A stretch of DNA of 64,000 nt from NCBI RefSeq assembly GCF_054482525.1, contig NZ_CM137006.1. One strand, written 5' to 3'. The stretch's first letter is position 1, and every line of letters begins with the position of its first letter. Below are positions 23,501 through 26,500 of this stretch, piece after piece. The position numbers were made by a program.

Positions 23501-26500
23501 CACGGCGCGGAGTGCGGATCAAACTGATCATTCAGGGCGAACCGGATATGCCGATTGTCAGAGTCGGCGCGCGCTTGCTGTATAACTATCTGGTTAAAGG
23601 CGGCGTTCAGGTGTTTGAGTACCGCCGCCGCCCGCTCCATGGCAAAGTGGCATTGATGGACGATCACTGGGCGACAGTAGGGTCCAGTAATCTCGATCCG
23701 CTCAGTTTGTCACTGAATCTCGAAGCAAATGTCATCATCCACGATCGTCATTTTAACCAGACGCTGCGTGATAATCTGAACGGCATTATCGCCGCAGATT
23801 GTCAGCAGGTGGATGAAACCATGCTGCCGAAACGCACCTGGTGGAACCTGACCAAAAGCGTGCTGGCGTTCCACTTTTTACGCCACTTCCCGGCGCTGGT
23901 TGGCTGGCTTCCGGCACACACACCACGTCTGGCGCAGGTTGATCCCCCCGCACAACCGACAATGGAAACGCAGGATCGGGTAGAAACTGAAAACACGGGG
24001 GTAAAACCCTGATGAGTAAATCACACCCGCGCTGGCGCTTAGCAAAGAAGATCCTCACCTGGCTGTTTTTTATCGCGGTGATTGTGTTGCTGGTGGTCTA
24101 CGCCAAAAAAGTGGACTGGGAAGAGGTCTGGAAGGTCATCCGCGACTACAATCGCGTTGCGTTGCTCAGTGCGGTCGGGCTGGTGGTCGTCAGTTATCTG
24201 ATTTACGGCTGCTATGATCTGCTCGCCCGCTTTTACTGCGGTCACAAACTGGCGAAGCGCCAGGTGATGCTGGTGTCGTTTATCTGCTACGCCTTCAACC
24301 TGACGCTCAGTACCTGGGTTGGCGGCATTGGTATGCGCTATCGTCTGTACTCCCGGCTAGGGTTACCGGGCAGCACTATTACGCGGATTTTCTCGCTCAG
24401 TATTACCACCAACTGGCTGGGCTATATTTTGCTGGCCGGGATTATCTTTACCGCAGGCGTGGTGGAGCTGCCGGACCACTGGTATGTCGATCAAACCACG
24501 CTGCGCATTCTCGGCATTGGCTTACTGATGATTATCGCGGTTTATTTGTGGTTTTGCGCTTTCGCGAAGCACCGCCATATGACCATCAAAGGACAAAAAC
24601 TGGTGCTGCCTTCATGGAAATTTGCCCTCGCCCAGATGCTGATTTCCAGCGTTAACTGGATGGTAATGGGGGCGATTATTTGGCTGTTACTTGGTCAAAG
24701 CGTGAACTATTTCTTTGTACTGGGCGTGTTACTGGTTAGTAGTATTGCTGGCGTCATCGTGCATATTCCGGCGGGGATTGGTGTGCTGGAAGCGGTATTT
24801 ATCGCGCTACTGGCTGGGGAGCATACCTCCAAAGGTACAATTATCGCCGCCCTACTCGCTTACCGTGTGCTGTATTACTTTATCCCACTGCTGCTGGCGC
24901 TGATCTGTTACCTGCTACTGGAAAGCCAGGCGAAGAAGCTACGGGCGAAAAATGAAGCGGCGATGTGAAGTTTAGTTAAGTTCTTTAGTATGTGCATTTA
25001 CGACTAATGAAAAAAACGCGTATGCCTTTGCCAGACAAGCGTTATAGCTATCGCGGCAAGTATCCCAAAGAAGCCGATAAAATAGTAATAGAGTGTTAAT
25101 GCACCTGTAAAAGCGCAACGAACCGGACTCCACAACTCTTCGCTATGGCATTTTCCTGCCAGTTCAAGGAGCTTATTTCGTCCATGCGAGATAATGCCTG
25201 ACCATAACACAATCATTAAGCAACTTATTACCCAAACGGGTCGTTCACTCATTAATGCGGCATTCATGATGATCACCAGGGCCAACCCTGCGGTTGCCAC
25301 CATACCCAAAGCGGTAATGAGCCATATGCCGTTTAATATCCTGGCTTCGTGCTGAAAATCTAATTTATTGCTGTTTTGCGAGTATGATTCCATTCTTTTA
25401 GTTATCCTTAGAAAAAATATTAATATTCACCATCAATAAATTTAAAACCACGCATACAAAATACTTTTGTATTTATGGATACGGAAAACACTTCCGCTCG
25501 GCCATAATGCATATTTTATACCTGGTACTTGTTAAGTGTCGTTTTTAGTAAGAAAAAAAATCCCGACACATGGCCGGGATATTGATGGTGAAAAAGAATT
25601 AACGGCGGTTGCCGAAGATCCGCAACAACATCAGGAACAAGTTGATGAAGTCCAGATACAAGGTTAACGCGCCAAGAATGGAATATTTGCGCAGGTTCGA
25701 CGTGTCGCGGGTATCAATCTGCTCACCCATATTTTTCAGTTTCTGGGTGTCATATGCTGTCAATCCGACAAAGACAATCACGCCGATGTAGGTGACTGCC
25801 CACATCAATGCTTCGCTTTTCAGCCAGAAGTTAACCAGCGATGCCAGCACAATGCCGATTAACGCCATAAACAGCATATTGCCAAAGCCGCTTAGATCGC
25901 GCTTCGTGGTGTAACCGTACAGGCTCATTGCGCCGAACATCCCGGCAGTAACGACGAAAGTACTGGCGATAGAAGCAGCGGTATAGACAATGAAAATACT
26001 GGAAAGCGTAAGACCCGTCAGCGCCGAATAAAGCATAAAGAGCATCGTCGTTACACCTGCGCTCAGCTTTTGAATCATCGCTGATAACACAATAACCAAT
26101 GCTAATTGCGCGATGATCAGACCGATTAAAAAGACACGGTTAGTGAACAACAGCTCCATCACGGCCGCGGAATTAGCCGCATACCAGGCAACAAATGCGG
26201 TCAGCAACAAGCCAACGGTCATCCAGCCATAGACTTGCGCCATATAAGTTTGCAAGCCAGCCCGGGGTTGTACAATTGAATCAGAACGTGGGAATCTGTC
26301 CATGACGATCTCCTGAAGATATAAGGAATATCTTAAGGATACTGCAAAATGATGAGGCTGTGCATCGACGCAGCGTAAACGCATGTACTGAGCGGTGAAA
26401 TTGCCGGACGCAGCGGTGCCTTATCCGGCTAACAAAAAACTACCAGCGTTTTGCCGCCTGCTGATCGCTCTCCCGAGCTTCAACCCAGCGGTCGCCTTCC

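What the first reader, a model, noticed from the sequence alone, without database searches (positions are those of the whole stretch)
25004..25598. Gene at the ybhM position encodes only 129 aa
In the conserved order a Bax-inhibitor-1-like gene ybhM (which I recall as roughly 237 aa) lies between ybhL and ybhN, convergent with ybhN. Here the only ORF in that slot is 129 aa (several TM helices) and the whole ybhN-ybhL interval is about 630 bp, too short to hold a 237-aa gene. This may be a deletion derivative, a replaced allele, or my recollection of the reference length may be wrong.
Basis: partly seen in the sequence, partly recalled or inferred. Interest (0 to 1): 0.3.

Follow-up and report, generated by a model that had tools for sequence, protein, structure and literature searches.

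The report
Common in-frame deletion allele of ybhM
The short gene between ybhN and ybhL is E. coli ybhM with 324 bases (108 codons) missing from its middle, a natural variant found in about one in ten sequenced E. coli strains, so it is a real but ordinary case of decay of a dispensable gene.

Summary
The only ORF in the slot (window 25004-25393, minus strand) encodes 129 aa, and the ybhN-ybhL interval is 630 bp against 953 bp in K-12.

It is K-12 ybhM (237 aa) with a clean in-frame 324-bp internal deletion. The flanks are about 97% identical. The breakpoints lie in a short imperfect direct repeat (CAGGGCTGGCC / CAGGGTTGGCC in most intact alleles), and one copy remains at 25280-25290.

The deletion fuses the first part of helix 1 to the last part of helix 5. 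This leaves 3 of 7 predicted membrane helices. The promoter, RBS, start and stop are retained.

The allele is common and already catalogued:
- 575 of 5426 complete E. coli genomes (10.6%) carry the same junction.
- The exact protein is RefSeq WP_000446924.1 ("hypothetical protein") and occurs on at least 1000 public contigs.
- 12 of 13 sampled haplotypes fall in one ybhN clade, so the deletion looks old and mostly of one origin.

ybhM is an AT-rich paralogue found here only in Escherichia and Shigella. It lacks the family's two conserved aspartates and is often damaged in other ways (IS insertions, two other repeat-mediated in-frame deletions, replacement).

The most likely reading is a loss-of-function remnant, but this is untested. 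Interest is low.

The parts
25004..25393 (-). ybhM with a 324-bp in-frame internal deletion; intact 129-codon ORF (ATG at 25393, TAG stop at 25004-25006). The product is identical to RefSeq WP_000446924.1.
   Evidence: Pfam Bax1-I 34.4 bits against a cut-off of 34.1, matching only profile positions 129-205 of 207
25280..25290 (-). Deletion junction: the single remaining copy of the short direct repeat (CAGGGTTGGCC on the coding strand, ORF nt 104-114). Against K-12 the breakpoint can be placed anywhere in CAGG (25287-25290).
   Evidence: intact alleles carry CAGGGCTGGCC, CAGGACTGGCC or CAGGACTAGCC at nt 104-114 and CAGGGTTGGCC at nt 428-438, 324 bp apart
25394..25598 (-). ybhL-ybhM intergenic region (32% GC), collinear with K-12. 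It holds the ybhM RBS (AAGGA upstream of the ATG), the promoter and the ybhL terminator.
25513..25542 (-). Sigma-70 promoter-like site upstream of ybhM (ACGACA ... TATAAAAT). The hexamers reported for K-12 ybhM, ACGACA-16-TATAAA, are unchanged here.
   Evidence: consensus scan; PMC3946193 table read (constitutive RpoD promoter with an H-NS mark between ybhL and ybhM); sequence
25560..25580 (-). Terminator-like hairpin plus T-run just after the ybhL stop codon.
24969..25003 (.). 35-bp spacer between the convergent stop codons of ybhN and ybhM; one base differs from K-12.
24012..24968 (+). ybhN (318 aa, LPG_synthase_TM domain), the conserved neighbour that fixes the synteny.
25599..26303 (-). 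ybhL (234 aa as annotated in RefSeq; the mechanical ORF runs on to an upstream ATG at 26384). It is the canonical BI-1/YccA paralogue and is full length.
   Evidence: (Bax1-I 211 bits, profile 1-207)

Best explanation
The ORF is the orthologue of E. coli ybhM (b0787) carrying an old in-frame 324-bp (108-codon) deletion. The deletion arose by recombination or replication slippage between two short imperfect direct repeats inside the gene, and one repeat copy remains at the junction. Both repeat copies encode a Gly-Leu-Ala stretch within a helix. The two repeats lie in the coding sequence of helix 1 and helix 5. The product therefore fuses the first 35-38 residues, including the N-terminal part of helix 1, to the last part of helix 5, followed by helices 6 and 7. 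It loses the end of helix 1, helices 2-4 and the start of helix 5. Transcription and translation signals are untouched, so a 129-aa, three-helix membrane peptide may still be made. It cannot form the seven-helix BI-1/TMBIM fold and is most likely a non-functional or neutral remnant. The allele is a standing polymorphism, carried by about 10.6% of complete E. coli genomes. It is inherited mostly within one clade of the locus and sits in a gene that E. coli frequently loses or damages.

Shown: identity, size, position and frame of the deletion; the repeats; the frequency; retention of the signals.
Inferred: the slippage mechanism; the topology of the product; loss of function.
For: Deletion and repeats:
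- There is a single 324-column gap and otherwise about 97% identity to K-12 across the whole ybhN-ybhL interval.
- Intact alleles have CAGG[G/A]CT[G/A]GCC at nt 104-114 and CAGGGTTGGCC at nt 428-438. Deletion alleles keep one hybrid copy.

The long form is ancestral:
- E. albertii YbhM is 237 aa.
- YbhL and the third paralogue align across the deleted region; YbhL in turn aligns with B. subtilis YetJ.

Frequency:
- A 300-bp junction-spanning query at E<=1e-80 finds 575 of 5426 genomes, each as one piece. A 100-bp query finds 540.
- The central segment is present in 4808 genomes.
- The exact protein is on at least 1000 contigs, in a cluster of 452 members, and is RefSeq WP_000446924.1.

Structure:
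- The AF2 model of full-length YbhM has helices 5-43, 54-76, 79-100, 103-127, 134-154, 159-192 and 198-234 (pLDDT 80, pTM 0.77).
- The 129-aa form has three helices, pLDDT 63 and pTM 0.34. Hydropathy agrees.
- Pfam matches only the C-terminal third of the Bax1-I profile.

The gene is dispensable and decay-prone:
- IS1 insertions and IS5 in RR1/HB101.
- A DUF3969 cassette in place of ybhM.
- A frameshift on top of the deletion in ETEC1738.
- Two other in-frame deletion alleles, each at an exact direct repeat of 11 bp or 9 bp.

Origin: 12 of 13 sampled deletion haplotypes form one clade in the adjacent ybhN tree. No intact allele is closer than about 97.6% to any deletion haplotype.
Against: Loss of function is not demonstrated.
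- The ORF is intact in 12 of 13 sampled haplotypes that differ by up to about 4%.
- Pairwise pN/pS among deletion alleles (0.18) is no higher than among intact alleles over the same codons (0.16-0.28).
- Variants private to deletion alleles (9 nonsynonymous, 5 synonymous) do not differ significantly from those private to intact alleles (10 and 8; Fisher p=0.72).

These numbers fit continued purifying selection as well as variation imported by recombination from intact alleles.

A single origin is also not proven. Sites within 17 nt of the junction show all four combinations with deletion status. The 1EC213 type has K-12/IAI1-like flanks on both sides.

Confidence: 0.85

Rival explanations
1. 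The three-helix product is kept by selection and has its own role. For example, it could be a small inner-membrane protein that modulates FtsH or the paralogues YbhL/YccA. It would then be a functional short isoform rather than a dead remnant.
For: The ORF, promoter and RBS are intact. The ORF is open in 12 of 13 diverged haplotypes. pN/pS is 0.18. The allele persists in 10.6% of genomes. The deletion removes the equivalent of four membrane passes, so the orientation of helices 6-7 could be preserved (inference).
Against: Several radical changes lie in or near the hybrid helix of deletion alleles: M43R, G36E, N44D, A38V. One allele is frameshifted. Confidence in the AF2 model is low. The low pN/pS can be inherited from intact alleles by recombination in this visibly mosaic region. 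Full-length ybhM itself is often destroyed. No literature on ybhM function was found.
Confidence: 0.12
2. The same 324-bp deletion has arisen several times independently at a slippage hotspot, rather than once with later spread.
For: There are five or more junction-proximal haplotypes. These include D10/E166 with an IAI1-like left flank and a CAGGACT junction, and 1EC213 with K-12-like bases on both sides of the junction. 1EC213 has IAI1/K-12-like ybhN and ybhL. Two other repeat-mediated in-frame deletions in the same gene show that the mechanism operates here.
Against: 12 of 13 haplotypes share one ybhN clade. D10-type alleles are closer to other deletion alleles (97.2%) than to any intact allele (at most 96.0%). 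No deletion haplotype has a near-identical intact counterpart among 5426 genomes. The region is strongly mosaic, so recombination can explain the incompatible sites.
Confidence: 0.25
3. The short form is ancestral and the K-12 form gained 324 bp by insertion or internal duplication.
For: None beyond the bare length difference.
Against: E. albertii has the 237-aa form. The paralogues YbhL and the IAI1 extra gene align through the segment, and YbhL aligns with B. subtilis YetJ. 4808 of 5426 genomes have the segment. The family fold needs seven helices (Pfam profile coverage).
Confidence: 0.01
4. Assembly or sequencing artefact, or replacement by an unrelated gene.
For: None.
Against: The identical junction occurs in 575 independently assembled complete genomes. 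Both ORF ends and both flanks are orthologous to K-12 at about 97% identity.
Confidence: 0.01

Closest known systems
E. coli K-12 YbhM (b0787, WP_000446911.1, 237 aa; uncharacterised BI-1/YccA-family inner-membrane protein)
   Same: Same chromosomal slot between ybhL and ybhN, same orientation and the same promoter region. It is 97% identical over residues 1-38 and 144-237.
   Different: It lacks 108 internal residues (36-143) and has 3 instead of 7 predicted helices.
RefSeq WP_000446924.1 / UniProt A0A0D8WLV6 ('hypothetical protein', 'Inner membrane protein', 'FtsH-binding integral membrane protein'), 129 aa
   Same: Identical sequence. It is annotated in SCU-102, MZ1211, BEC1-S17-ESBL-09 and many others.
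   Different: Nothing differs; this is the same catalogued protein. Database names do not say that it is a deletion form of YbhM.
BI-1/TMBIM family, structural prototype Bacillus subtilis YetJ (PDB 4PGR); E. coli members YbhL and YccA
   Same: The C-terminal helices 6-7 carry the family signature GALTLY. The Pfam Bax1-I hit is just above threshold.
   Different: Helices 2-4 are missing. Even full-length YbhM has Gly and Tyr where YbhL and YetJ have the two aspartates (YD...LYLDF). YbhM has no phmmer hit to YetJ.
Short-direct-repeat (slipped-mispairing) deletions, as classically described at lacI hotspots in E. coli (my recollection of Farabaugh 1978 and Albertini 1982; not re-read here)
   Same: The endpoints lie in direct repeats a few hundred bp apart and one copy is retained. 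Sibling alleles of the same gene use exact 9-bp and 11-bp repeats.
   Different: The repeat used here is imperfect: 10/11 identical in most intact alleles and only 4 bp exact in K-12.

Membership tests
ybhM orthologue (E. coli b0787) | Located between ybhL and ybhN, same strand as ybhL, convergent with ybhN | tested here: met
ybhM orthologue (E. coli b0787) | High sequence identity to K-12 ybhM and its flanks | tested here: met
   97% protein identity over the shared parts and a collinear interval
ybhM orthologue (E. coli b0787) | Full-length product of about 237 aa | tested here: not met
   129 aa; 108 residues deleted
Pfam PF01027 Bax1-I / TMBIM | Score at or above the Pfam gathering threshold | tested here: met
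   34.4 bits against a cut-off of 34.1. This is marginal and covers profile positions 129-205 of 207 only.
Pfam PF01027 Bax1-I / TMBIM | Seven transmembrane helices | tested here: not met
   Three helices in the 129-aa form against seven in full-length YbhM
Pfam PF01027 Bax1-I / TMBIM | Conserved aspartate pair on helices 6 and 7 (Asp171/Asp195 of YetJ; residue numbers from my recollection) | tested here: not met
   YbhL and YetJ share YD...LYLDFINLF. YbhM has SHG...LYYYFIGFF at the aligned positions. This holds for the full-length and the short form.
Pfam PF01027 Bax1-I / TMBIM | Three-dimensional similarity to YetJ | tested here: inconclusive
Repeat-mediated (slippage) deletion | Direct repeats at both endpoints in the undeleted allele, with exactly one copy at the junction | tested here: met
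Repeat-mediated (slippage) deletion | No mobile-element or site-specific recombinase footprint at the junction | tested here: met
   The junction sequence is wholly ybhM. IS200C in some carriers lies in the upstream intergenic region, not at the junction.
Pseudogene | Frameshift, premature stop or loss of start | tested here: not met
   The ORF is intact in the window. RefSeq annotates it as a CDS. Only ETEC1738 is flagged as frameshifted.
Pseudogene | Loss of activity of the product | not testable with these tools
   No function is known, even for full-length YbhM.

The most novel reading that the evidence does not exclude
The 129-aa, three-helix remnant is not dead. On this reading it has been kept open through the diversification of a deep E. 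coli clade because it acts as a small membrane protein in its own right. For example, it could be a decoy or modulator for FtsH or for the paralogues YbhL/YccA. That would make it an example of a new micro-protein born by internal deletion of a seven-helix protein.
Probability: 0.1. Interest if true: 0.4.

Novelty: already known. Interest (0 to 1): 0.1.

Why it matters
It matters little for biology at large. It is a frequent natural allele of an uncharacterised, dispensable, Escherichia-restricted paralogue, and the sequence is already in RefSeq and UniProt.

It has three modest uses:
- Annotation: the 129-aa 'hypothetical protein' entries could be labelled as an internally deleted YbhM.
- Typing: the deletion is a simple clade-linked marker present in about 10% of genomes.
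- Illustration: short repeats in helix-coding, hydrophobic sequence produce recurrent in-frame deletions. Three different ones were seen in this one gene.

If the remnant proved to be functional, it would be a small example of protein miniaturisation.

Tried and rejected
- **48-bp junction query.** It found only 11 genomes, because a SNP next to the junction breaks the 28-mer seed. I replaced it with 100-bp and 300-bp junction queries with strict E-value limits.
- **Megablast with the K-12 central segment.** It undercounted intact alleles (4156). blastn 'distant' mode gave 4808, which closes the accounting: 4808 + 575 = 5383 of 5426.
- **MAFFT on mixed alleles.** It misplaced the gap, so I built the shared 390-column alignment by hand.
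- **Near-identical intact parent.** I looked for one for each deletion haplotype, to test for recent recurrent deletion. None was closer than about 97.6%.
- **Selection tests.** Pairwise pN/pS and private-variant counts do not separate relaxed from continued constraint.
- **Rfam scan of 23500-27000.** No match.
- **Literature.** No paper on ybhM function or on this deletion. The antisense gene asa lies in yccA, not in ybhM.
- **Unequal crossing-over with the third paralogue.** I considered it as the origin of the deletion and rejected it, because both deletion endpoints are inside ybhM itself.

Full report
**What is in the window.** The region is the E. coli ybhP-clsB-ybhN block on the plus strand, facing ybhM-ybhL-moaEDCB on the minus strand.
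- The only sizeable ORF between ybhN (24012-24968, +) and ybhL (25599-26303, -) is 25004-25393 on the minus strand, 129 aa.
- The ybhN-ybhL interval is 630 bp. In K-12 MG1655 the same interval is 953 bp and contains a 714-bp ybhM of 237 aa.

**What it is.** Aligning the two intervals gives one contiguous 324-column gap and about 97% identity elsewhere.
- This covers the upstream intergenic region, the start codon, the last 287 nt of the gene and the 35-bp spacer to ybhN.
- At protein level the window ORF equals K-12 YbhM residues 1-35 and 147-237. The tripeptide GLA at the junction could come from either side. The deletion is 108 codons and in frame.
- The endpoints sit in a short direct repeat. 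Most intact alleles read CAGGGCTGGCC (or CAGGACTGGCC) at nt 104-114 and CAGGGTTGGCC at nt 428-438. K-12 has the more diverged CAGGACTAGCC on the left.
- Deletion alleles keep a single hybrid copy, at window 25280-25290. This is the signature of slipped mispairing or short-homology recombination. No mobile-element sequence is at the junction.

**Direction of the change.**
- E. albertii YbhM is 237 aa.
- YbhL and a third paralogue align through the missing segment, and YbhL aligns with B. subtilis YetJ.
- 4808 of 5426 complete E. coli genomes have the segment.
- The long form is therefore ancestral and the window carries a deletion, not the lack of an insertion.

**How common it is.**
- A 300-bp query centred on the junction, with an E-value limit that a half-match cannot reach, finds 575 of 5426 complete genomes (10.6%), each as one uninterrupted piece. 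A 100-bp version finds 540.
- Intact plus deleted genomes sum to 5383, so nearly all genomes are accounted for.
- The exact 129-aa protein is RefSeq WP_000446924.1, annotated 'hypothetical protein' or 'Bax inhibitor 1 family protein'.
- It occurs on at least 1000 contigs of the public collection, in a cluster with 452 sequence variants.
- The window's own haplotype is rare: 5 genomes at 99% identity or more over the 300-bp junction query. One of them, SCU-102, is identical over 801 bp.

**History.** I sampled 13 deletion and 8 intact loci.
- In a tree of the adjacent ybhN gene, 12 of 13 deletion carriers form one clade that contains no intact carrier.
- No deletion haplotype has an intact counterpart closer than about 97.6% among 5426 genomes.
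- This points to an old event inherited mainly within one lineage group. I did not determine which phylogroups.
- The region is strongly mosaic. The bases just beside the junction differ between subgroups. D10/E166 has an IAI1-like left side. 1EC213 has K-12-like bases on both sides and IAI1/K-12-like ybhN and ybhL.
- A second independent event, or transfer of the allele by recombination, cannot be told apart with these data.

**Consequence for the protein.**
- An AF2 model of full-length YbhM (pLDDT 80, pTM 0.77) has seven helices: 5-43, 54-76, 79-100, 103-127, 134-154, 159-192 and 198-234. Hydropathy agrees.
- The deletion cuts inside helix 1 and inside helix 5. The end of helix 1, helices 2-4 and the start of helix 5 are lost, and a hybrid helix is formed, followed by helices 6 and 7.
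- The model of the 129-aa product has three long helices with low confidence (pLDDT 63, pTM 0.34).
- Pfam still scores it just over the Bax1-I threshold (34.4 against 34.1 bits), but only on the last third of the profile.
- The equivalent of four membrane passes is removed, so the orientation of helices 6-7 could be preserved. That is an inference.

**Expression signals.**
- The sigma-70 promoter reported for K-12 ybhM (ACGACA-16-TATAAA, with an H-NS mark; PMC3946193) is unchanged at about 25513-25542.
- The RBS and start codon are unchanged too.
- The ORF may therefore be expressed whenever ybhM would be.

**Is it functional?** Nothing is known about YbhM function.
- Even the full-length protein is an atypical family member. 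It has Gly and Tyr where YbhL and YetJ have the two conserved aspartates, and it has no direct sequence hit to YetJ.
- The gene is AT-rich (42-44% GC against 51.5% for the window). It was found only in Escherichia and Shigella.
- It is repeatedly damaged:
  - IS1 insertions of two kinds and IS5 in RR1/HB101.
  - Replacement by a DUF3969 cassette.
  - Two further in-frame deletion alleles, of 208 and 195 aa, whose endpoints are exact 11-bp and 9-bp direct repeats.
  - A frameshift on top of the 324-bp deletion in ETEC1738.
- This pattern fits a dispensable gene. It makes a loss-of-function remnant the best reading of the 129-aa ORF.
- Against that reading, the ORF is open in 12 of 13 haplotypes and pN/pS is 0.18, no higher than for intact alleles. 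Private variants (9 nonsynonymous to 5 synonymous, against 10 to 8) do not differ significantly.
- Much of that variation may be imported from intact alleles by recombination, so I treat the question as open and give retained function about 10-12%.

**Verdict.** It is a common, already catalogued allele of an uncharacterised accessory gene, explained by a textbook mutational mechanism. Interest is low.

Noticed in passing
L016 (E. coli IAI1) 3388-4092, minus strand: A third BI-1-family paralogue (234 aa, WP_001299026.1, about 27% identical to YbhM) sits between ybhL and ybhM. In these strains the first ~10 codons of ybhM and its upstream region also differ from K-12. The extra gene is present in 750 of 5426 complete genomes. 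It also lacks the aspartate pair.
   Followed up: partly
L022 (strain GDSC2227PM) 3073-3664: ybhM is replaced by a two-gene cassette (a hypothetical protein plus a DUF3969 family protein) and about 730 bp of other DNA. About 17 genomes match at 80% coverage or more.
   Followed up: partly
L021, L023, L024; L004 and L008; paper PMC5379014: Independent IS hits occur at the locus. IS1F and IS1A lie inside ybhM, the IS1A case with additional loss of sequence. IS200C lies in the ybhM-ybhL intergenic region of some deletion carriers. IS5 is in ybhM of RR1/HB101.
   Followed up: partly
P0027 (208 aa) and P0031 (195 aa); repeat sites at ybhM nt 260/347 and 319/445: Two more in-frame internal deletion alleles of ybhM exist. 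Their endpoints coincide with exact direct repeats: TGTTTTTAATC 87 bp apart in CFT073-type alleles, and ATCATCGTG 126 bp apart. Their frequencies were not measured.
   Followed up: partly
L010 (ETEC1738) 1266-1656: One extra A right at the deletion junction (AACCAGCAG) frameshifts the already shortened ORF. RefSeq marks it as a pseudogene.
   Followed up: yes
window 25004-25393 and K-12 YbhM residues about 177-180 and 210-214: YbhM, full-length or short, has SHG and LYYYF where YbhL and B. subtilis YetJ have YD and LYLDF. Both aspartates of the family's conserved pair are therefore absent.
   Followed up: yes
window 25599-26384, minus strand: The mechanical ORF for ybhL starts at an upstream ATG (26384, 261 aa). 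RefSeq annotates the 234-aa form starting at 26303. The Pfam match begins at residue 45 of the long form. I did not examine which start is used.
   Followed up: no
window 22771-22774 and 24012: ybhP/clsB overlap by 4 bp and clsB/ybhN by 1 bp, which suggests translational coupling in one operon.
   Followed up: no
window 25194-25355, plus strand: A 53-aa ORF runs antisense to the shortened ybhM. There is no evidence that it is a gene. The published antisense gene asa lies in yccA, not here.
   Followed up: partly
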